A stretch of 64,000 bases of DNA from Allosphingosinicella sp. (lineage in GTDB: Bacteria; Pseudomonadota; Alphaproteobacteria; Sphingomonadales; Sphingomonadaceae), in NCBI GenBank assembly GCA_035719905.1, contig DASTFN010000044.1, positions 4,711-68,710 on the forward strand. The letters run 5' to 3'. Position numbers and translations under genes: made by a program. Shown piece after piece: positions 5,563-63,353 of this stretch. Below the pieces are notes generated by a model that saw nothing but the letters and a program-made list of their open reading frames with translations, did no database searches and was not told the DNA's origin. The stretch's first letter is position 1. Every line of letters starts with the position of its first letter.

Positions 5563-6013
5563 AATAGCGGCAAATAACATGTAGGAAGCCCCCTGAAGAG
5601 GTTCGAGGGACGCGTCAGGTGGCGTCGCATACCTTTCGAGACCTCAAATGGCAGGCCGTTCCTGATCGAGCTCCCAGCACTGTCCGACGAGGGGTCGCCA
5701 AATGCGCTTCGCGACATGCCGGCGTTTCGGCCCCCCAAGCGAGGAAAATCAGCCTAGCCTTGGATGATTGTGAGGCTTGGTCGTCGGCCACTGAAATTCG
5801 GCCAAGTCGAACCAACGAATGACAAGGCGGTCGTATTAGACGGTGGCGTGACCTACGAAGCGGTTCGTTTCGGGGCCGCGGCGCTCAATGAGTTTGCTCA
5901 TTCGTTCATAAAACTGATGGACGGGCTTGTTGTTTTGAAAAGCAGCCTCCTGCCGTCTATTTGAGGTTGCAGCAGCAGATACCCTAGTTAGGCTCTCTGC
6001 GCGGGAGGTCTGA

Positions 6014-6931
6014 ATGGCAAATCGGCGCGAATGGAAGGGCGAGGAGTGGCAGGATTTTGCGCTGCAGCTCGTGCAACGCCGCCACGGCGCCGAAAATGTT
6101 CAGAGGGTGCCGGATACGGTCAAGGGCGATGCCGGTCTCGAATTTTTCACCACCTGCGGCTGTCTTTATCAATGCTACGCGCCCGAAGAGGTCTCGGACG
6201 TTAAGAAGGCCGCCAGTGCCATGAAGGCAAAGGCGGGTCGCGATCTGCCGAAGCTTGTAAAGAACCAGACGGTTATCGAAAATCTACTTGCGGGCACGAA
6301 GGTTCATCGCTGGATCCTTCTCTGCCCCTTTCTCGACGACAAGGAGGTAGTTGCATCGATCAGGGCGCGCGGCGTCACGATCAAAGCGAGCAACCTCTCG
6401 TTTGTACTTCCTAATTTCGAGGCGCTTTGCCATTCGCAAGACGATTTCCAGGCGGAGATCGACCAGCTGAAATCGATGTCGCTTGGCCCTCCGCTCAGCG
6501 TGGTGGCCCCGACAGCGCAACAAGTCACCGACGCTGGCAGCACCGAGATAGGAACGCGCATCGACGAGAAGCTCGGCCGTGCCCTCGGGAGGCGCGCGCG
6601 GCCCGATCAGATTGCCTCGAAGCGTAATGAATATGTGAGGGCCCATCTTCATCGCGAGAATGCGCTCGATCAGCTTCGCGACAATCATGCCGTGCTCTGG
6701 GAGCGGGCCTTCGAGGCGATCGAGGCAGAGGAGGCGCGGCTCATCGCGGTGGGGGCGATTTCGACGCTGCCTGGTCAGCAGCTTCAGGAGAGCATGAGTC
6801 GGATCGAGGCGTCCCTCACTGAGGCATTGCCGACGGTGAGCCCTGGCCTGCGAACGCGAATTGCTCTGGGCACGATCAGCGACTGGCTCATCCGTTGCCC
6901 CCTCGATTTTCCGGACGGCACTGTTTCGTGA
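6014..6931 (+). CDS. Lamassu/ABC-3C effector component (PD-(D/E)xK-like nuclease plus C-terminal domain)
   Basis: GDAGLEFF...YQCYAPE nuclease-like motif; C-terminal DWLIRCPLDF; first gene of a 3-gene coupled operon ending in an SMC-like ATPase. Confidence 0.75.
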   Translation: MANRREWKGEEWQDFALQLVQRRHGAENVQRVPDTVKGDAGLEFFTTCGCLYQCYAPEEVSDVKKAASAMKAKAGRDLPKLVKNQTVIENLLAGTKVHRWILLCPFLDDKEVVASIRARGVTIKASNLSFVLPNFEALCHSQDDFQAEIDQLKSMSLGPPLSVVAPTAQQVTDAGSTEIGTRIDEKLGRALGRRARPDQIASKRNEYVRAHLHRENALDQLRDNHAVLWERAFEAIEAEEARLIAVGAISTLPGQQLQESMSRIEASLTEALPTVSPGLRTRIALGTISDWLIRCPLDFPDGTVS

Positions 6932-7407
6932 CAGATCCCGAAATCACCGATGGACGCTTCTCGTTCCAGCGTCGACCGACCCCCGTGCCGGGTGATCTGC
7001 GAATAGCTTGGAGGGTCTCTCTGATCCTGCTGATGCTGGCGGCCTCGCGGTCGAGTCGGGCGTCGCTCGCCAAGCTGCACATCCTCAACGATGCGATCCG
7101 TTCCAATCAGGTCCATCGGCTGAAGGCCGCGACCGACGCCGATGCTCGAACGCTTCCATGGAATCTCCGCGTCGAACCCGCATTTGCTCGGGCGATCGAC
7201 TTCGTGGTGGGTGAACGTCTTGCGGCTTGGACGAAGGCCGGAGGGCGCGCTTCGCTACAGCTCACCGCCAGCGGGATAGCGGCAGCGGCAGGGCTTGAAC
7301 AATTCCAGGACGCACTTCAGGAGGAGCGAGCCATTATCGCAGAACATGCAAGGAAGCTGACCGAAATCCGTGTCACCGCCCTCCTGGGAGAAAGGCCTGA
7401 CGCATGA
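6928..7407 (+). CDS. ABC-3C middle component (LmuC-like), 159 aa
   Basis: GTG start overlaps the upstream stop (GTGA); small protein between effector and ATPase with R.EPAF.RAIDF motif. Confidence 0.7.
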   Translation: MTDPEITDGRFSFQRRPTPVPGDLRIAWRVSLILLMLAASRSSRASLAKLHILNDAIRSNQVHRLKAATDADARTLPWNLRVEPAFARAIDFVVGERLAAWTKAGGRASLQLTASGIAAAAGLEQFQDALQEERAIIAEHARKLTEIRVTALLGERPDA

Positions 7408-38455: not shown

Positions 38456-39349
38456 CTACCCCAGCCTCTTACGGCAGACCCGCTCCACGCGCCGCTGAAG
38501 CTCCGTAACCCGCTCCGTCAGCCAAGTGATCTCGTTTCGGGAGATCCTGTAGTGCGGCGAGTAACGGGCGTTTACATAGGCCTGTCGCAGCAGTTCGAAG
38601 GCCCGCCGCTCGAATTTTCCTTCCCTGGGCCAGGCCTCGATCAACTCCGGAGCTATCTGTTCAGCCTGGGACCGCAGGAAGTTCAGCTTGTGCGACTTGG
38701 GGCTGTAGAGGGTCAGAACGAGCAGGACGCAGTGATACAGCCGCTCTGCCGTCTGATGGAGGTCGAAGGCAGCCTCCTTCCAATATTCCTTGCCGGCGGC
38801 CGTGCGGGCCAGATCGAAACGGCGCTCGGCGCTTGGATACCACTCGTTGAAATAGGCCTCCGCTTCGACCCTCGCCTGTTCCTCCGGCAGCTTTCTCGGC
38901 GTGGTGAAGGCGAAGCCCTGAGCCTCGTAGAGGACCGCCCCGTGCTCCACGATGTCCACGAAGAAGGGGCGGCCCCGCTCGAGCTGGCTGTTCACGTCGG
39001 AAAGCGAATGGACGATAAAGTTGACGGGCGCGCTGAGGCTCCCGGCAATCGATGTCTCGCGCATCAGCCTGTCGTCGGCGACCGACCAGAAGTCGATCAC
39101 GTCCGTCAGACGATCGTCGCTGACGACGACGAGGATATCGTAGTCCGATCTGTAGCCACCGACCGGATCATCCACCCAGTCTCCTCGGGCATAGGAGCCG
39201 TAGAGCACCACCTTGAGGATGCGTCCGCCCTTTTTCCATTGCTGGCTCGCCCGCGCCGTGACCGACTCGAACTCCTCAAAGAGAATCCGAACCACCGAGG
39301 CGAGCTCTCGCTGCTTGCCGTCCGGCAGATGATCCAGGCTCGTTTTCAT
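38456..39349 (-). CDS. Fused minimal nucleotidyltransferase-HEPN protein
   Basis: Start MKTSLDHLP at 39349; LYGSYARGD..SDYDILVV; HEPN-like AAFDLHQ.AE..HKL..YVNARY. Confidence 0.88.
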   Translation of the reverse strand: MKTSLDHLPDGKQRELASVVRILFEEFESVTARASQQWKKGGRILKVVLYGSYARGDWVDDPVGGYRSDYDILVVVSDDRLTDVIDFWSVADDRLMRETSIAGSLSAPVNFIVHSLSDVNSQLERGRPFFVDIVEHGAVLYEAQGFAFTTPRKLPEEQARVEAEAYFNEWYPSAERRFDLARTAAGKEYWKEAAFDLHQTAERLYHCVLLVLTLYSPKSHKLNFLRSQAEQIAPELIEAWPREGKFERRAFELLRQAYVNARYSPHYRISRNEITWLTERVTELQRRVERVCRKRLG

Positions 39350-39876
39350 CCCGCCCCATGTCGTCGCGCCGGCGCGGAATGCCAAGCGCATTTCATCGCT
39401 GTGCGTCCGCCGCGGCTCGCGTGAGCGGCCGTCCCGACGGCTCCCGCCCGTCGATTGAAAAGAGTCACAGTCTTTTCCCTCGAACATCCCCATAAATCTT
39501 TTCGGTCCGGATCGGACCTTCCTGCGAGCGTTCCGAATGCTCAACCCGTTGAACATCCATGGAGTCCGCTCGGCGCACCCTCCCTTGCTGCCAGCACCGT
39601 CCGTCCCAATCGGGTTCCCAATTCAGGAATCCAATGCAATACGCGGATTGATCGGCTCGAGCAGAGATGCAAACACTCGCAGGACGTCGACAGCACGACT
39701 CGCACGGAGCACCCAAGGTGGAAGTGCACACACCGCCACTTGAACATCTCCACGCAGCACCGACGTAGTCGTCACAACAATCGCATACCCAACCGTCGCC
39801 GCTTCACTGCGGAGGCGGCTTTACAAGCAGGATCGGAATAAGTAGCGTGGTGGACGACGCACGGCAGGGGGCAAGC

Positions 39877-40500
39877 ATGGCGAGTACTGTGGACGCATCG
39901 TCCGATGCGGTATCTCGCGACTCCCGTGCAGCCCAGTTCCACTCCTTCCATCGATTTCAAAGCCAGCAGTCCGATTGGGTACCCTTCGAACCAACGAAGC
40001 CCAGCGGCATGTCGACGCCCCAGATCGAAACTTTGGCCGAAGGCCTCGCATCCGAGCTGAACTATGTTCCGGGTACGGACATCCGCGAACTCGTCGTTCG
40101 TATAGGCGGCAAACTCTTGTCGACACCGGTACTCGGCGTGTCGGATGGCACTGACGGCACCCTGCTGCTTCGCCCGGACTCAACAAATTTCGTGATAGTT
40201 CTTCCAGTCAGAGCGAGCTCGCGCCAGGATCAACTGGCAGTAGCCAAATTACTGGGGCACTATTTTTTGCATTATCGGTTTTTCCAAATCGAAACCGAGG
40301 GCAAGGCCAGTCGTCCAACGCCGGCGCGAGCACAGCGCGAAGCGCTGCTATTCGCACTTGCGTTCCTTATGCCAGCAGAGGCATTTTCTCGCGCCTATGA
40401 ACTGGCACACGGGAAGATGGACGTGGTAGCAGCGTCTTTCGGCGTGCCGTTCGAAGCGGCGGAACTGCGTCACCGGAGGCTCCAGATCCGAGCCAAGTAA
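39877..40500 (+). CDS. ImmA/IrrE (DUF955)-like protein with degenerate HExxH
   Basis: AKLLGHYFLH where AHELGH is expected; EALLFALAFLMP where EANxFAAxxLMP is expected. Confidence 0.7.
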   Translation: MASTVDASSDAVSRDSRAAQFHSFHRFQSQQSDWVPFEPTKPSGMSTPQIETLAEGLASELNYVPGTDIRELVVRIGGKLLSTPVLGVSDGTDGTLLLRPDSTNFVIVLPVRASSRQDQLAVAKLLGHYFLHYRFFQIETEGKASRPTPARAQREALLFALAFLMPAEAFSRAYELAHGKMDVVAASFGVPFEAAELRHRRLQIRAK

Positions 40501-40518
40501 ACCGCCATCGGGGGGCTA

Positions 40519-41718
40519 GTGGCGCAACTTCCAGACCATATTCCCGAGATTCTGAAACCGCGCCTGCGCCTCTTCATGAGCGTGGATGTCGTCGGCTCGA
40601 CGAAGCTGAAGCAGCCCGAGTTTCTCAGCAAGCAGATCGATTGGCTCGACATTCTGCAGCGGTTCTACGGTGAGACTGTCGAGGCCGTGCAGACTGAATG
40701 GCTCGCCCTGCGAGCGCTTTTCCCGGATCCTGCCACCCACCCGGACTTCCTTGGCGATCCGCCGCAATTCTGGAAAACGGTCGGCGACGAGGTCCTCTAC
40801 TACAAGGACCTCACCGACAGCCGGCAGCTGGCCCTCGCCCTCGAATGCTGGAAGAAAGCGCTGACGCGGGTCAGGACCTTCCTCTACAAACAGAACGAGG
40901 GCGCGCTCAAAGACGCGGTTCCGGAGGTTAAGCTCGACGTCAAATCGGCCGTATGGACTGCCGGCTTCCCCTGGCGGAACAAGACGATCGTGAGCCCGTC
41001 CGGATTGCTCAACGAGCTGTGCAAGGGTGACTACGCCGAGGTGTTCCAGAACGCCCACGAGAAGGCTCACCGCGAACCAGCGCCAGGAGACGGAACGGGC
41101 GCGCGGGTCGAATTCGATTTCATCGGCCCAGGCATCGACATCGGGTTTCGCCTCTGCGGATTTGCGACGGTGCAAAAAATGGTGCTGAGCATGGATGCCG
41201 CCTACATCCTAGCGGCAGTTCGCGGCGCCAACGCCTTCCTTCTACCGGAACCTCTATATTATGACGGGCGCATTCCCCTCAAAGGCGTCTTCGCCGGCCG
41301 GGAATATCCGCTTTTTTGGATCGACAACTCCCATCCCGACTCCTTCGAAGCCAAGGAGTCGCGCGCTCGGCATCCCATCAGCGACACCGATGTCCTCAGA
41401 TTCTGCGAGACGTTTTACAAGGAATTCTACAACCTCTTCACGCACCGCCCCTTTATCGTCGGCGACCATGGCGGCCTCACCGCGATACCCGACGATTTCG
41501 ACCGCTGGATGGGTGTCCAGGTTGCCCAGTACGAAGAGCGCCGGAAAGAAGGCGAGCGCCGCCAGCAGGCCGAGCAGGAACTGACGAGAGCCGGCGCTTC
41601 GCGCGGAGGCGGCGCACGGCAGCCGGCCGCAATCGACGTCAACGAACTCAAACAGAGACTCACTCGGGATATCGCACCCCAGGCCGAGGACGAGCCTGAG
41701 GCTCCCAAAAAAACCTAG
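40519..41718 (+). CDS. Class III nucleotidyl cyclase-like protein
   Basis: LFMSVDVVGST, WKTVGDEV, DFIGPGIDIGFRL match the D-xx-GST / GD / GxxV(N/D)xAxR layout. Confidence 0.65.
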   Translation: MAQLPDHIPEILKPRLRLFMSVDVVGSTKLKQPEFLSKQIDWLDILQRFYGETVEAVQTEWLALRALFPDPATHPDFLGDPPQFWKTVGDEVLYYKDLTDSRQLALALECWKKALTRVRTFLYKQNEGALKDAVPEVKLDVKSAVWTAGFPWRNKTIVSPSGLLNELCKGDYAEVFQNAHEKAHREPAPGDGTGARVEFDFIGPGIDIGFRLCGFATVQKMVLSMDAAYILAAVRGANAFLLPEPLYYDGRIPLKGVFAGREYPLFWIDNSHPDSFEAKESRARHPISDTDVLRFCETFYKEFYNLFTHRPFIVGDHGGLTAIPDDFDRWMGVQVAQYEERRKEGERRQQAEQELTRAGASRGGGARQPAAIDVNELKQRLTRDIAPQAEDEPEAPKKT

Positions 41719-59943: not shown

Positions 59944-62241
59944 ATGGCGCAGACTACCTTCAGATTAGCTCGGGGCGACACCATTGCAATGCCCGACGGT
60001 ATAGCCGGGACTCAACTCTGGCGCGTCGAGCGACGCCTTCAGAAGGGCTATTTGACCTCGTCCAGCCACGCCCCGGATCGCGTTTGGACGCACGATGAGA
60101 TCATGGCGGCCTGGTGCGACCACCGAATGGAGCATTGGGCAGCCGATCTGTCGGGACTGGACGAGGCTCTCGCGGAGATGCTGCAGAGCGATCTTGACCG
60201 CTGGTCACCAGAGAAGATCTTCGAGGCGCGTTGCCGAGAAACTTATGCCAGACGAGTTGACGAATTGCGTGGCGCCGGCGTCCGCAAATACAAGGCGTAT
60301 CGGCGAGCAGCGGCGGAGATCACCGCGGAGTTCGGGGATGAATGGGCAAAGAGGGCGGCGGAGCTCCGGGGGGCCGCCGATGCGCTGGCTCCAAGGCGCC
60401 TGAAGACTCGGTCGATTGCATTGGCCCAAGCTCCCATTCCTCCACTCACGCTGGGCTGGAGCGCGGTGAAGAAGTGGTGGCTGAGGTGGGACAAAGCTGG
60501 ACGGGATCTGCGGGCGCTCATCTCGCAAGATCACCTTCGTGGCGACCACAGGCCTCGCTTCGACGACAGGAGGGGCGAGCAGAAGGACGACGCGGACGTG
60601 CGCTGCGTCTATGGCGCCATGGCCTGGCTCGCACGGACCGTCTACATGGGTCAGACGGACCAAGACGGCGACGGTAAAGCATCTGGCCATACTGCCACGT
60701 CCACCAAGAAATATGCTCACGAGCGGCTCAAGGAGAAGCTGAAGTCGCTCCGCCTTCCGACCGTGTCGATCACCACATTCTCGAAGTTCCTTCGCGATCG
60801 CTACGATGCATACGACGAATACCGGGCGCGCTTCGGGCCGAGGGCCGCCTATCTGAAGTTCCACATCTTCGAGAGACGCGCACTCCCAGACCGGGCCATG
60901 GAAGAGGTGGAGGTAGACCATTGTCTCCTCGACGTGTTCGTCATGGACCGCCACGGGCGGGTCGCTCGTCCTTGGCTGACAGTGCTGATCTGTCGCGCCA
61001 CGAAGATGATCGTCGGGATCCACATCGGGTTCGATCCCCCCAGTTCCGAGACGCTGGCTCGCGCGGTCCTGCACGCGATCCTTCCGAAGGTGCTCGATGG
61101 CACTGGTGCCAAGCACGATTGGCCCTGCATGGGGGGCTTCGACATGCTGATCACTGATCGGGGCCTCGAACTCATGAGCGAGGCCTTCCAGCGCGCCGGC
61201 AACCGTCTTAAGTTCGCGATCGTCAACCTTCCGGGAAGGTCTCCGTGGTTGAAGGCGACCGTCGAGCGTTTCTTCGGGACGCTTGGTGTGCGCGTCCTGT
61301 CGCGGCTAGAGGGGACGACCCGTGCGCGGGCGCCAGACTGGTATGATCCACAGGCCCGAGCGCGGTGGGGATTGGCGGAGCTCACCGCTGAAATCGTCCG
61401 GTGGATCGTAGACGATTATCACGAGGCGCATCACGACACGCTCGGCACATCACCCCGACGCCGTTGGCAGGAGCTCGCCGAGGATGCGCACTGCGGCGGT
61501 GTTCGGGTGCCGCCGCCCTTTAAGGAGGTTTTCCGGATGCTGGGTGAGGGTGGGATCACCCGCGTCATCGGCAATAGCGGCATTCCCTTCGACAACAATC
61601 ACTACTCAAGCCCCGATGTGGAAAGATACAGGCGCACTCACGACGGTAAGAAACCGGTTGAGATCATTGCCGAGTATTTCGATCGGAGCTTCATCTGGGT
61701 GAAGCTCGGTAACGATTGGAAGGAGGTGCCGGCGGTCGGCGGCGTCCGCCTGCAAGGGCTAAGTCGCTACGCTAACCGAATCGTCAATCGACTCGCCCGC
61801 AAACTCACGCCGCAGGGTGAGGAGGTCACCGAGGACACATTGGAACGCGCCCGCATTCAGTGTGAGGAAGAGGCGCGCACGATGAAGGGGCGCCGCGCTA
61901 TACGCTTCGGGTCCGAGGGCGCGCTAGCCACCGACGTCCTTGGTAACAACGGGCGGCTCGCGGTGTTGGCAAACGGATTGGAAACGCCGTTAATCGAAGA
62001 CTCGGCTCAGGCGCCAACCGATAAGGCACCGACGTTCACGATCGAGCAGAAGTCCTCCGCCGAACGGGAGGCGGATGCCCCATCCGTAGATGCGCCTGAG
62101 CATGGCGCCGCCACCGATCAAGGCAATGATCTTGAGCAGAACGAGCCGAACATCGCTGGGCTCGCGATTATGACTGCACCGAAGCAGGATCTGGACTCCA
62201 TTCTGGCCGAGCTTTCCGGCGCCCATAGGGTGCTACGATGA
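59944..62241 (+). CDS. tnsB: DDE transposase TnsB (Mu-transposase-like C terminus)
   Basis: EVEVDHCLLD, RPWLTVLIC, LITDRGLE, KATVERFFG, YH...H..LG.SP...W. Confidence 0.92.
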   Translation: MAQTTFRLARGDTIAMPDGIAGTQLWRVERRLQKGYLTSSSHAPDRVWTHDEIMAAWCDHRMEHWAADLSGLDEALAEMLQSDLDRWSPEKIFEARCRETYARRVDELRGAGVRKYKAYRRAAAEITAEFGDEWAKRAAELRGAADALAPRRLKTRSIALAQAPIPPLTLGWSAVKKWWLRWDKAGRDLRALISQDHLRGDHRPRFDDRRGEQKDDADVRCVYGAMAWLARTVYMGQTDQDGDGKASGHTATSTKKYAHERLKEKLKSLRLPTVSITTFSKFLRDRYDAYDEYRARFGPRAAYLKFHIFERRALPDRAMEEVEVDHCLLDVFVMDRHGRVARPWLTVLICRATKMIVGIHIGFDPPSSETLARAVLHAILPKVLDGTGAKHDWPCMGGFDMLITDRGLELMSEAFQRAGNRLKFAIVNLPGRSPWLKATVERFFGTLGVRVLSRLEGTTRARAPDWYDPQARARWGLAELTAEIVRWIVDDYHEAHHDTLGTSPRRRWQELAEDAHCGGVRVPPPFKEVFRMLGEGGITRVIGNSGIPFDNNHYSSPDVERYRRTHDGKKPVEIIAEYFDRSFIWVKLGNDWKEVPAVGGVRLQGLSRYANRIVNRLARKLTPQGEEVTEDTLERARIQCEEEARTMKGRRAIRFGSEGALATDVLGNNGRLAVLANGLETPLIEDSAQAPTDKAPTFTIEQKSSAEREADAPSVDAPEHGAATDQGNDLEQNEPNIAGLAIMTAPKQDLDSILAELSGAHRVLR

Positions 62242-63353
62242 CATATCAGCACAGCAATCTAGATCCAGCCATGGGTGCGGTCGCGGACCTCGAACTCGCG
62301 ATCATGTCCCACCAGATGTTGGATCAGGCGATCGAGGCGATGACTATCTTGCTCGCTCGTTCGAGGCACCGTCGCGGGAGACAGCACCTGCGTGCCCGCG
62401 GTATGCTTCTGGTCGGCGACGCGGGAGCGGGCAAGTCCACCATCATCCAGCACTTCTTGGATCTTAACCCCCCGGAGCAGACGCTGGACGGGATCGTAAT
62501 GCCTGTCGCTGTGGTGGAGGTGCCCCCAGCACCGACACTGCGAGCAACCGTAGATGCGATCTATGCGGCGCTCGGCTATCGCGCCGAGAAGGCGCTGTCT
62601 GCCGAGGACATAGTCAGGGATCTCACTGGCAAGGTAGACCTGCTCGGCGTCGGAGCGATGCTTCTCGACGAATCCCACCACATTCTTGCTTCGCGTCAGT
62701 CCGCCGACGTGACCGAGTTCCTCAAGTCGCTGCTGAACAGGCTGGGCTGCAGCATGATCTTTGCTGGACTCCATGAGCTGAAGGACCTTCGTGGCTCCCT
62801 GCAGCTCAACCGCCGCCTTTTCCCTGACGCCGTGCTCCGCCCTTACAATTTCCTCAACACGGCCGAGCGCCTCGAGTTCATGGCCTTCCTCAATGCCCTC
62901 GAGCTTCATGCGATCAAACTTCCTGAGCCCTCCGGGCTTGCCAATCAGGAGATGGCGCGCCGGCTCTACGCAGCGTCGGGAGGGCTGCTCGGCATCGTCA
63001 CCAAGTACCTGTCACATGCCCTGCTTCTGGCGCACCTGCGCGGACTAAGGTGCATCGACCTCGATCTTCTCGCCGAGATCGACGCGAGTTGGTGCGGTCT
63101 GGCCGCGGCACCCGATGATATCCGCTTCGACGATGACATCTCCTTGGACCAGGGTGTGGACGTTGCAGGTCTCTTGGCCCAGGTCGGACGCGCGCGGATC
63201 GACGTCCCTTCCAATCCTTTCAAGTGTGATGCCGGTCTGGTCTTCGACATTTACAAAACGCGCGCAGCTCAGCAGGTCGTCGAGCCGCCGAGGCGTCGCC
63301 TCGACCGCCGGATGAGAGGCACCGGACCGGATCCCCAGAAGGCCTTTCAGTGA
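62238..63353 (+). CDS. tnsC: TnsC/TniB AAA+ ATPase
   Basis: LVGDAGAGKST, LLDESHH, LKSLLN, QL.RR; ATGA-coupled to tnsB. Confidence 0.92.
   Translation: MTYQHSNLDPAMGAVADLELAIMSHQMLDQAIEAMTILLARSRHRRGRQHLRARGMLLVGDAGAGKSTIIQHFLDLNPPEQTLDGIVMPVAVVEVPPAPTLRATVDAIYAALGYRAEKALSAEDIVRDLTGKVDLLGVGAMLLDESHHILASRQSADVTEFLKSLLNRLGCSMIFAGLHELKDLRGSLQLNRRLFPDAVLRPYNFLNTAERLEFMAFLNALELHAIKLPEPSGLANQEMARRLYAASGGLLGIVTKYLSHALLLAHLRGLRCIDLDLLAEIDASWCGLAAAPDDIRFDDDISLDQGVDVAGLLAQVGRARIDVPSNPFKCDAGLVFDIYKTRAAQQVVEPPRRRLDRRMRGTGPDPQKAFQ

What the first reader, a model, noticed from the sequence alone, without database searches (positions are those of the whole stretch)
39877..41718. Pseudo-IrrE metallopeptidase coupled to a class III nucleotidyl-cyclase-like gene
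Seen: a two-gene operon with an 18-bp gap. The first protein has the IrrE/ImmA scaffold but HExxH is replaced by KLLGH, so it is probably not a protease. The second keeps both metal-binding Asp motifs and a GxxIDxxxR motif of class III cyclases. Known: IrrE-like proteins sense ssDNA or damage (CapP, ImmA), and class III cyclases make cyclic pyrimidine signals in Pycsar. Inference: a dead-peptidase sensor may control a cyclase in a signalling or defence system with no adjacent canonical effector. Candidate effectors in the island include the HEPN and DUF4062-TPR proteins.
Basis: partly seen in the sequence, partly recalled or inferred. Interest (0 to 1): 0.62.

Follow-up and report, generated by a model that had tools for sequence, protein, structure and literature searches.

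The report
Dead-peptidase plus divergent nucleotide-cyclase operon
Two tightly coupled genes encode a zinc-peptidase look-alike that has lost its catalytic residues and a very divergent nucleotide cyclase. They are a derived copy of a widespread, apparently undescribed peptidase-cyclase module of phages and mobile islands that sometimes sits beside a known antiviral membrane effector.

Summary
Gene A (39877-40500, +) is an M78/IrrE-fold protein that reads KLLGH where the family has HExxH. Gene B (40519-41718, +) starts 18 bp later.

B matches no Pfam, NCBIfam or PADLOC model. Its AlphaFold model (pLDDT 91.8) matches only class III cyclases. Both metal Asp, a Lys/Asp base-pair signature, the Arg and the LKG lysine are invariant in 85 loci. 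Asp replaces the usual Asn.

The pair is a real module:
- B lies within 60 nt of A's stop in 54/56 genome loci and 27/27 prophage loci.
- It occurs in Leptospira phage LE1 and in Clostridioides phage phiC2.
- Seven loci carry a PycTM-type Pycsar effector next to it.

Most partners keep HExxH. The loss is not a local mutation: it marks a Sphingomonadales clade of at least six lineages (K/Q-x-L-G/A-H/N), with a rough dN/dS of about 0.12.

The HEPN and DUF4062-TPR genes are not conserved partners.

My best reading is a Pycsar-like, peptidase-gated cyclic-nucleotide conflict module, present here in an effector-less form with a pseudo-peptidase. The mechanism is inferred, not shown.

The scan has already noted this module on other genomes. 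I found no paper describing it.

The parts
39877..40500 (+). Gene A: 207-aa M78 (ImmA/IrrE-fold) pseudo-peptidase
   Evidence: Pfam PF06114 E 3e-11 and PADLOC capP E 7e-9. The AF2 model has pLDDT 88. The best Foldseek matches are M. tuberculosis regulator 6cz6 (E 2e-5) and IrrE/PprI 8sln and 3dti.
40246..40260 (+). KLLGH, the degenerate HExxH site of A (K124 L125 L126 G127 H128)
   Evidence: The translation was verified. In the alignment of 51 partners this column reads HELGH in 90% or more. H128 and H132 are invariant. Clade relatives read KALGH, KALGN, KALAH, QALGH and KQLGH.
40501..40518 (+). 18-bp spacer with a GGGGGG ribosome-binding-like run before the GTG start of B
   Evidence: Read directly from the sequence. 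The tight coupling is conserved across loci.
40519..41718 (+). Gene B: 399-aa divergent class III cyclase-homology-domain protein with a helical C-terminal extension
   Evidence: No Pfam, NCBIfam or PADLOC match. The AF2 model has pLDDT 91.8. All top 50 Foldseek PDB matches are class III adenylyl, guanylyl or uridylyl cyclases, for example CyaC 1wc4 at E 1.4e-8 with TM 0.72-0.78 on the target.
40573..40602 (+). B residues 19-28, FMSVDVVGST: first metal-binding Asp (D23) and the phosphate-binding GST loop
   Evidence: F19, D23, S27 and T28 are invariant. The motif aligns to the MFTDIVGST motif of Rv1900c. It sits at the end of strand 1 in the model.
40771..40791 (+). B residues 85-91, WKTVGDE: Lys86 at the base-specifying position and the second metal Asp (D90)
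   Evidence: W85, K86, G89, D90 and E91 are invariant in 85/85 loci. They lie on the strand 2-3 hairpin of the model.
41116..41151 (+). B residues 200-211, DFIGPGIDIGFR: Asp200 at the base-specifying position, Asp207 where canonical cyclases have Asn, and Arg211
   Evidence: D207, G209, F210 and R211 are invariant, and D200 is present in 82/85 loci. The segment aligns to the TDVAGVAVHIGAR segment of Rv1900c.

Best explanation
The pair is a derived member of a widespread, so far unnamed two-gene conflict module: a small ImmA/IrrE-type zinc peptidase gene translationally coupled to a very divergent class III nucleotide cyclase.

B is most likely an active, homodimeric cyclase that makes a cyclic mononucleotide. 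The Lys86/Asp200 signature suggests ATP as the substrate.

In the ancestral module the peptidase probably acts as the input or gating subunit of the cyclase, by analogy with the stress- and DNA-damage-activated peptidases CapP, ImmA and IrrE. The nucleotide then acts on an effector such as the PycTM membrane protein encoded beside some copies.

In this window's Sphingomonadales clade the peptidase has lost the catalytic His-Glu but is still under purifying selection. It probably regulates B by binding rather than by cleavage. No effector is encoded next to it, so the signal would act in trans or the output would differ.

Shown: the folds, the residue conservation, the coupling, the distribution and the effector adjacency. 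Inferred: enzyme activity, product, the A-B contact, the trigger and the output.
For: Fold and active site of B:
- B has the cyclase fold, and every catalytic-position residue is invariant in 85 loci.
- A weak profile match to the class III cyclase Rv1900c aligns both motif blocks.

Fold of A:
- A has the M78 fold.

Pair conservation:
- The pair is conserved and tightly coupled in 54/56 genome loci and 27/27 viral loci.
- One natural in-frame fusion exists (L015).

Distribution:
- The family is sporadic and mobile. B is found in 202 of about 185,600 species genomes and in 3 of 201 genomes of the same family.
- It lies beside the CI repressor in phage LE1, on Leptospira plasmids, and in the accessory region of phage phiC2 between AbiF/endolysin and the integrase.
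- It is also found next to restriction-modification, Druantia, Mrr-STAND and type IV secretion genes.

Effector adjacency:
- A PycTM-type effector lies directly next to the pair in L034, L044, L016 and L082 (Pfam).
- The same holds in L036, L116 and phiC2 (hhalign probability 93-95%).

Dead peptidase:
- It is conserved as an intact ORF in at least six lineages with the same K/Q substitution. The window-L126 pair has dN/dS 0.12 for A against 0.16 for B.
Against: - No activity, product, A-B contact or phage phenotype has been measured.
- Asp207 replaces the transition-state Asn of canonical cyclases in the whole family.
- PF00211 and the PADLOC Pycsar models do not recognise B.
- Only about 7 of roughly 115 loci have an adjacent PycTM, and none of them is in the dead-peptidase clade.
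- About 23 Caulobacterales genomes keep B alone, next to spoT, with all catalytic residues. B therefore does not need the peptidase, and not every copy need be a defence gene.
- The dS values are saturated, so dN/dS is only rough.
Confidence: 0.5

Rival explanations
1. Toxin-antitoxin-like pair. B is a growth-arresting enzyme, through NTP depletion or a toxic nucleotide. A, encoded first and coupled to it, neutralises it by binding. The dead peptidase is then a pure antitoxin.
For: - The gene order is antitoxin-first with tight coupling.
- M78 domains are common in antitoxin-type regulators. There is a weak NCBIfam match to the spr1629 repressor/antitoxin family (E 2e-4, far below its cut-off).
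- Loci are mobile and sporadic.
- A natural fusion implies physical association.
Against: - B persists alone, with all catalytic residues, in about 28 loci. These include a vertically inherited Caulobacterales clade, which is hard to reconcile with an unneutralised toxin.
- An antitoxin would not need the HExxH that most partners keep.
- The adjacent PycTM effectors suggest signalling rather than direct toxicity.
Confidence: 0.17
2. Induction switch of a mobile element. A is an ImmA-type anti-repressor peptidase that cleaves an HTH repressor of a prophage or integrative element. B is its accessory sensor, in the way RapI or RecA serves ImmA.
For: - In phage LE1 the pair lies beside the CI repressor and is annotated as an immunity-region protein.
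- In a Leptospira plasmid and in phiC2, HTH regulators lie within a few kb.
- Three of 104 upstream neighbours are XRE-type HTH proteins.
Against: - No HTH gene is a conserved neighbour.
- Many pairs sit alone between housekeeping genes such as uvrA, uvrB, secA and nusG.
- In the window the peptidase is catalytically dead and no repressor gene is adjacent.
- B is retained where A is lost.
Confidence: 0.1
3. Decaying or domesticated remnant. The defence module has lost its trigger (dead peptidase) and its effector. B survives here as an ordinary physiological cyclase or has no function.
For: - The Sphingomonadales clade shows progressive decay of the partner, from dead to degenerate to absent.
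- No effector is adjacent.
- Solo B has been fixed in Caulobacterales.
Against: - The dead A is kept as an intact ORF with the same substitutions across at least six lineages, and its dN/dS is about 0.12.
- The pair still travels on mobile islands: type IV secretion genes in L001, and a TniB-bearing island in the window.
- It is absent from the two same-genus genomes searched.
Confidence: 0.18

Closest known systems
Pycsar and its purine offshoot Pucsar (PycC/PucC cyclase plus PycTM or CNBD-TIR effector; bioRxiv 10.64898/2026.08.12.744502 and the work it cites)
   Same: - B has the class III cyclase fold.
- The context is mobile or defence-related.
- A PycTM-type 3TM effector lies directly next to seven relatives.
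- A Pycsar uridylate cyclase (8jsz) is among the structural matches.
   Different: - B is not recognised by PF00211 or by the PADLOC models.
- The family always has Asp at the Asn position.
- It is coupled to an M78 peptidase, which that paper does not mention for any clade.
- The window copy has no effector.
- The base-specifying residues look like the adenine type.
CapH/CapP regulators of CBASS and other defence operons, including a CapP/CapH + DUF2188 + guanylate cyclase + cNMP-binding-TIR operon of Tsuneonella flava (bioRxiv 10.1101/2022.04.27.489752)
   Same: - An M78 peptidase is encoded upstream of a nucleotide-signalling defence enzyme.
- A matches the PADLOC capP profile (E 7e-9).
- The cited example is also from a sphingomonad.
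   Different: - There is no CapH-like HTH substrate gene.
- A matches only positions 4-150 of the 242-position capP profile, and there is no sign of the C-terminal GAF domain.
- The peptidase is coupled directly to the cyclase gene.
- It is catalytically dead here.
ImmA/ImmR (ICEBs1, phage phi105) and IrrE(PprI)/DdrO
   Same: - A has the size and fold of a minimal ImmA-type peptidase.
- IrrE/PprI structures are among the best structural matches.
- Phage copies lie in the lysogeny or immunity region.
   Different: - The conserved partner is a cyclase-fold enzyme, not an HTH repressor.
- HExxH is lost in the window's clade.
M. tuberculosis regulator in PDB 6cz6/6cyy/6d2s (from memory: PrpR, a non-proteolytic M78-like ligand-binding domain)
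   Same: It is the best structural match to A (E 2e-5, 25% identity). It is a precedent for an M78 fold used as a non-catalytic sensor domain.
   Different: That protein is fused to a DNA-binding domain and regulates transcription, whereas A is a stand-alone 207-aa protein. The identification as PrpR and its ligands come from memory and were not checked here.
Leptospira phage LE1 gp81/gp80 (ORF2/ORF1) and Clostridioides phage phiC2 p42/p41
   Same: These are members of the same two-gene family, found by tblastn and confirmed by annotation.
   Different: - Their peptidases keep HExxH.
- phiC2 p41 is 528 aa. Its phiCDHM19 counterpart is annotated as a putative Nudix hydrolase.
- phiC2 has a PycTM-like p40 next to the pair.
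- Both pairs are annotated only as hypothetical, metallo-protease or regulator.

Membership tests
Class III nucleotidyl cyclase (cyclase homology domain) superfamily | Cyclase homology domain fold | tested here: met
   The AF2 model has pLDDT 91.8. All top 50 Foldseek PDB matches are class III cyclases, with E down to 1.4e-8 and target TM 0.72-0.78.
Class III nucleotidyl cyclase (cyclase homology domain) superfamily | Two metal-binding aspartates (end of strand 1 and the strand 2-3 hairpin) | tested here: met
   D23 and D90 are invariant in 85/85 loci and lie on the expected elements of the model.
Class III nucleotidyl cyclase (cyclase homology domain) superfamily | Transition-state Asn-x-x-x-Arg pair | tested here: not met
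   Arg211 is invariant, but the Asn position is Asp207 in all 85 loci. The aligned position in the active cyclase Rv1900c is His, so the substitution need not abolish activity.
Class III nucleotidyl cyclase (cyclase homology domain) superfamily | Sequence match to Pfam PF00211 (Guanylate_cyc) | tested here: not met
   No match at E up to 1. hhalign against three PF00211 domains of the same genome found nothing. The profile against PDB gave only E 1.2 to Rv1900c.
Class III nucleotidyl cyclase (cyclase homology domain) superfamily | Cyclisation of an NTP by a head-to-tail dimer | not testable with these tools
   This needs an enzyme assay and a dimer structure.
Pycsar / Pucsar | Cyclase recognised by Pycsar cyclase models | tested here: not met
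   No PADLOC family matched B.
Pycsar / Pucsar | Adjacent cNMP-activated effector (PycTM or CNBD-TIR) | tested here: not met
   - There is none next to the pair in the window.
- The genome's only PycTM-like gene is on another contig among housekeeping genes. That gene type is common in the family (62/201 genomes) irrespective of B (3/201).
- The feature is met in seven relatives.
Pycsar / Pucsar | Phage-triggered synthesis of cCMP, cUMP or cGMP and protection from phage | not testable with these tools
   This needs LC-MS and phage challenge.
M78 (ImmA/IrrE) metallopeptidases | M78 domain by sequence and fold | tested here: met
   PF06114 E 3e-11, above its cut-off. Foldseek matches 6cz6 and IrrE/PprI.
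M78 (ImmA/IrrE) metallopeptidases | HExxH zinc-binding and catalytic motif | tested here: not met
   The motif is KLLGH. The first His is Lys and the catalytic Glu is Leu. E153 is Gln and N157 is Leu. H128, H132 and E155 are kept.
CapH/CapP, ImmR/ImmA, DdrO/IrrE regulator pairs | Cognate HTH repressor gene next to the peptidase gene | tested here: not met
   There is no HTH ORF between 39557 and 39876 or after 41718. HTH neighbours occur in only a few relatives.
CapH/CapP, ImmR/ImmA, DdrO/IrrE regulator pairs | C-terminal GAF-like domain (CapP, IrrE) | tested here: not met
   A is 207 aa. The capP profile is matched only over positions 4-150 of 242. After the M78 core the model has only short helices.

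The most novel reading that the evidence does not exclude
The conserved pseudo-peptidase is the infection- or damage-sensing subunit. It allosterically switches a cAMP-type (purine) cyclase without any proteolysis. The signal acts in trans on effectors encoded elsewhere, such as the orphan PycTM-like protein found in this genome and in about a third of related genomes. That would make it a split, peptidase-derived sensor version of Pycsar/Pucsar.
Probability: 0.12. Interest if true: 0.75.

Novelty: new variant of a known kind. Interest (0 to 1): 0.55.

Why it matters
How cyclic-mononucleotide defence cyclases sense infection is still unclear. A family of roughly 2,000 sequence clusters in which the cyclase is hard-wired to an ImmA/IrrE-type peptidase offers a testable sensor-enzyme pair. 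Model temperate phages such as LE1 and phiC2 carry it.

The family also contains a natural series: active peptidase, conserved dead peptidase (this window), and no peptidase. Comparing the three can separate proteolytic from scaffold roles.

It also shows that current Pfam, PADLOC and NCBIfam models miss a whole branch of class III cyclases.

Tried and rejected
- **Sequence methods on B.** phmmer against PDB gave nothing. The profile against PDB gave only E 1.2. hhalign against three canonical cyclase domains of the same genome gave nothing. Only the structure comparison gave an answer.
- **Conserved third gene.** Clustering of all neighbouring ORFs, BLAST of long upstream genes and Pfam tallies of 210 neighbours found none. 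The only recurrent specific neighbour is PycTM.
- **Orphan PycTM as the in-trans effector.** The gene is present in 62/201 genomes of the same family, against 3/201 for B. One of the two other B-carrying genomes lacks it. There is no specific link.
- **HEPN and DUF4062-TPR as effectors.** They are not found beside any relative. A RiPP operon separates them from the pair in the window.
- **Modelling the A-B contact through the natural fusion L015.** The mixed alignment came out misaligned, so I abandoned it. No A-B complex model was made.
- **Other dead ends.** A look-up of a Phenylobacterium protein by exact sequence failed. The promoter and terminator scan was uninformative. Burroughs et al. 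2015 (NAR) could not be opened, so I cannot exclude that it mentions this association.
Full report
**1. Observation**

Two same-strand ORFs occupy the stated coordinates.
- Gene A starts at ATG 39877, with GGGGG 7 nt upstream, and ends with TAA at 40498-40500.
- After an 18-bp spacer containing GGGGGG, gene B starts at GTG 40519 and ends with TAG at 41716-41718.

**2. Gene B**

Sequence libraries do not recognise B.
- It matches no Pfam, NCBIfam or PADLOC model and no PDB sequence.
- It has 54 relatives in the 90%-clustered protein collection, none with a Pfam domain.
- A profile search of 1.84 billion representatives finds 1,981 clusters at E of 1e-10 or better. It does not run on into the canonical cyclases.
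- A profile against PDB gives only a weak top match (E 1.2), but that match is the class III adenylyl cyclase Rv1900c, and both motif blocks align.

The structure settles the question.
- The AlphaFold model built on the family alignment is confident (pLDDT 91.8, pTM 0.87).
- All top 50 Foldseek matches in the PDB are class III adenylyl, guanylyl or uridylyl cyclases. CyaC 1wc4 scores E 1.4e-8, and target-normalised TM is 0.72-0.78.
- The order of secondary-structure elements places the conserved residues where cyclases have their catalytic set:
  - D23 at the end of strand 1.
  - K86 and D90 on the strand 2-3 hairpin.
  - D200, D207 and R211 at the start of the helix after strand 5.
  - LKG (K255) before the last strand.
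- D23, K86, D90, D207 and R211 are invariant in 85 of 85 loci, and D200 is present in 82.
- There are two departures from the textbook set. Asp207 replaces the transition-state Asn in the whole family. The Lys86/Asp200 pair is the adenine-type signature rather than a pyrimidine one. That signature reading comes from established knowledge of class III cyclases and was not tested here.

**3. Gene A**

- A matches Pfam Peptidase_M78 (E 3e-11) and the PADLOC capP profile over its peptidase part (E 7e-9).
- Its model has pLDDT 88. The best structural matches are the M. tuberculosis regulator 6cz6 (E 2e-5) and IrrE/PprI 8sln and 3dti.
- In an alignment of 51 partners the motif column reads HELGH in 90% or more. 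H128 and H132 are invariant.
- The window's protein has Lys for the first His, Leu for the catalytic Glu, Gln for E153 and Leu for N157. It keeps H128, H132 and E155.
- It cannot be a normal metallopeptidase.

**4. The pair is a module**

- In 80 loci from one-genome-per-species contigs plus nine from metagenomes, about 60 have an M78 gene directly upstream on the same strand.
- The N-terminus of B lies within 60 nt of A's stop in 54 of 56 genome loci, with the median overlapping. The same holds in 27 of 27 prophage loci.
- One locus (L015) is a natural in-frame fusion.
- No third gene is conserved.
- The family is sporadic. It is found in 202 of about 185,600 species genomes and in 3 of 201 genomes of the window's own family. 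It is in neither of the two same-genus genomes searched.

**5. State of the HExxH motif**

- HExxH is intact in about 49 genome partners and in all 27 phage-borne partners.
- It is lost in the window (KLLGH), L126 (KALGH), L127 (KALGN), L001 (KALAH), L010 (QALGH) and L011 (KQLGH). It was lost independently in Dokdonella (QMLGH).
- On the tree of B, the window, L001, L010 and L011 form an all-dead clade with support 97. That clade sits inside a Sphingomonadales clade whose other members have a degenerate partner or none.
- Caulobacterales lost the partner altogether. There B sits in conserved synteny, convergent to spoT-rpoZ.
- The dead A is not a pseudogene. It is an intact ORF in all six lineages. 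Window against L126 gives dN/dS 0.12, against 0.16 for B, although dS is saturated.
Most homologous pairs keep HExxH, yet the loss is clade-wide and maintained.

**6. Context**

- The pair lies in temperate phages:
  - LE1 gp81/gp80, beside the CI repressor.
  - phiC2 p42/p41, between AbiF/endolysin and the integrase, together with phiCD27, CDKM9 and phiCDHM19.
- It lies on Leptospira plasmids beside a PIN-type toxin-antitoxin pair.
- It lies next to type IV secretion genes and an Mrr-STAND gene in the closest isolate relative.
- It lies next to type I, III and ISP restriction-modification genes.
- DruA, nSTAND and AbiEii-like ATPases appear among the neighbours.
- A PycTM-type Pycsar effector lies directly beside the pair in L034 and L044 (upstream, same strand) and in L016 and L082 (downstream, convergent), all by Pfam.
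- The same holds in L036, L116 and phiC2 p40, by a profile built only from the Pfam-verified proteins (hhalign probability 93-95%).
- These seven loci belong to at least five separate lineages.
- Excision-repair genes also flank the pair: uvrA twice, uvrB twice, and uvrC once. A gene that looks like recQ from its N-terminal sequence alone, not checked against a family model, flanks L030. This may echo the DNA-damage theme of IrrE-type peptidases, or it may be chance.
The gene before A is a fused NTase-HEPN on the other strand. A TniB ATPase at 62238-63350 fits a transposon-borne island.
- None of the HEPN or DUF4062-TPR genes recurs beside relatives.

**7. How it most likely works**

- Shown: a cyclase-fold protein with a fully conserved active site. 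It is encoded with an M78-fold partner, is mobile, and is sometimes next to a cNMP-gated membrane effector.
- Inferred:
  - B makes a cyclic mononucleotide, probably from ATP.
  - The ancestral peptidase gates it in response to infection or DNA damage, as CapP, ImmA and IrrE respond.
  - The nucleotide activates PycTM or another target.
- B keeps its active site where A is dead or absent. Proteolysis therefore cannot be obligatory for B's activity, and A is better seen as a regulatory input than as an essential activator.
- In this window the conserved pseudo-peptidase would act by binding.
- The rivals are a toxin-antitoxin pair, an ImmA-type induction switch, and a decaying or domesticated remnant. 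They are weighed in their own sections.

**8. Comparison with known systems**

- The closest systems are Pycsar/Pucsar and the CapH/CapP-regulated defence operons.
- The CapH/CapP paper lists a CapP/CapH + DUF2188 + guanylate cyclase + cNMP-binding-TIR operon from a sphingomonad.
- The 2026 survey of immune cNMP cyclases describes Pycsar-1 to -3, Pycsar-like-4 and Pucsar. It does not mention an M78, ImmA or Nudix association.
- Full-text searches for Pycsar with M78, and for PycC/PycTM with metallopeptidase, returned nothing.
- Phage annotations call the two genes only 'similar to LE1 ORF1/ORF2'.
- I could not open Burroughs et al. 2015.

**9. Earlier notes of this scan**

- After my own neighbourhood analysis, a look-up showed that the scan has already flagged the same module on other genomes. 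One of those cases is a dead-peptidase copy, and others are cyclase-Nudix fusions.
- Those notes agree with what I found. They are not independent evidence.

**10. Verdict**

- This is a new variant of a known kind.
- It is of moderate to good interest, mainly because of the family as a whole and the natural series from active to dead to absent peptidase.

Noticed in passing
own genome, contig C32:22082-22702 (L094:5083-5703): An orphan PycTM-like gene (Pfam E 6e-27) lies between an aminotransferase and mpl/ldcA-type genes, with no cyclase beside it. A single such gene occurs in 62 of 201 genomes of the same family.
   Followed up: partly
L037, L039, L046, L055-L056, L060-L062, L064-L066, L068-L069, L072, L075, L078-L079, L081, L084, L086-L089 (around 5900-7000): About 23 Phenylobacterium/Caulobacterales genomes carry the cyclase-like gene alone. 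All its catalytic residues are kept. It sits in conserved synteny between a phosphoribosyltransferase gene and a convergent spoT-rpoZ.
   Followed up: partly
L015:5452-7086: A natural in-frame fusion of the peptidase and the cyclase-like protein in an uncultured alphaproteobacterial genome. A sequencing error is not excluded.
   Followed up: partly
L013, L018 (uvrA); L012, L017 (uvrB); L005 (uvrC); L030 (recQ-like): Excision-repair and helicase genes directly flank the pair in several unrelated genomes. The L030 gene is called recQ-like from its N-terminal sequence only.
   Followed up: no
L125 (phage phiC2, NC_009231.1 29538-32203): phiC2 p42 (metallo-protease), p41 (528-aa cyclase-like protein, whose phiCDHM19 counterpart is annotated as Nudix) and p40 (PycTM-like, hhalign probability 92.6%) form a three-gene set in the accessory region near AbiF.
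   Followed up: partly
window 38456-39556 (-): A single 366-aa protein joins a nucleotidyltransferase domain (Polbeta/NTP_transf_2) and a HEPN domain. It is divergent from gene A and is not conserved beside relatives of the pair.
   Followed up: no
window 62238-63350 (+): A TniB-type ATPase follows a 765-aa ORF that has no Pfam match. This fits the Tn7/Tn5053-like element proposed in earlier notes on this window. GC content is lower (0.57-0.65) from about 38 kb onwards.
   Followed up: partly
L028:1689-2297 (-), L053:4344-5018 (-), L059:4170-5033 (+): Three Bradyrhizobium loci have a second M78-like ORF just upstream of the pair.
   Followed up: no
L073:4725-5213 and L058:4702-5268: A GTA-type 3TM holin gene in L073 and a LigT-type 2H phosphoesterase gene in L058 lie directly upstream of the peptidase gene. 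They may be alternative effector or nucleotide-degrading partners.
   Followed up: no
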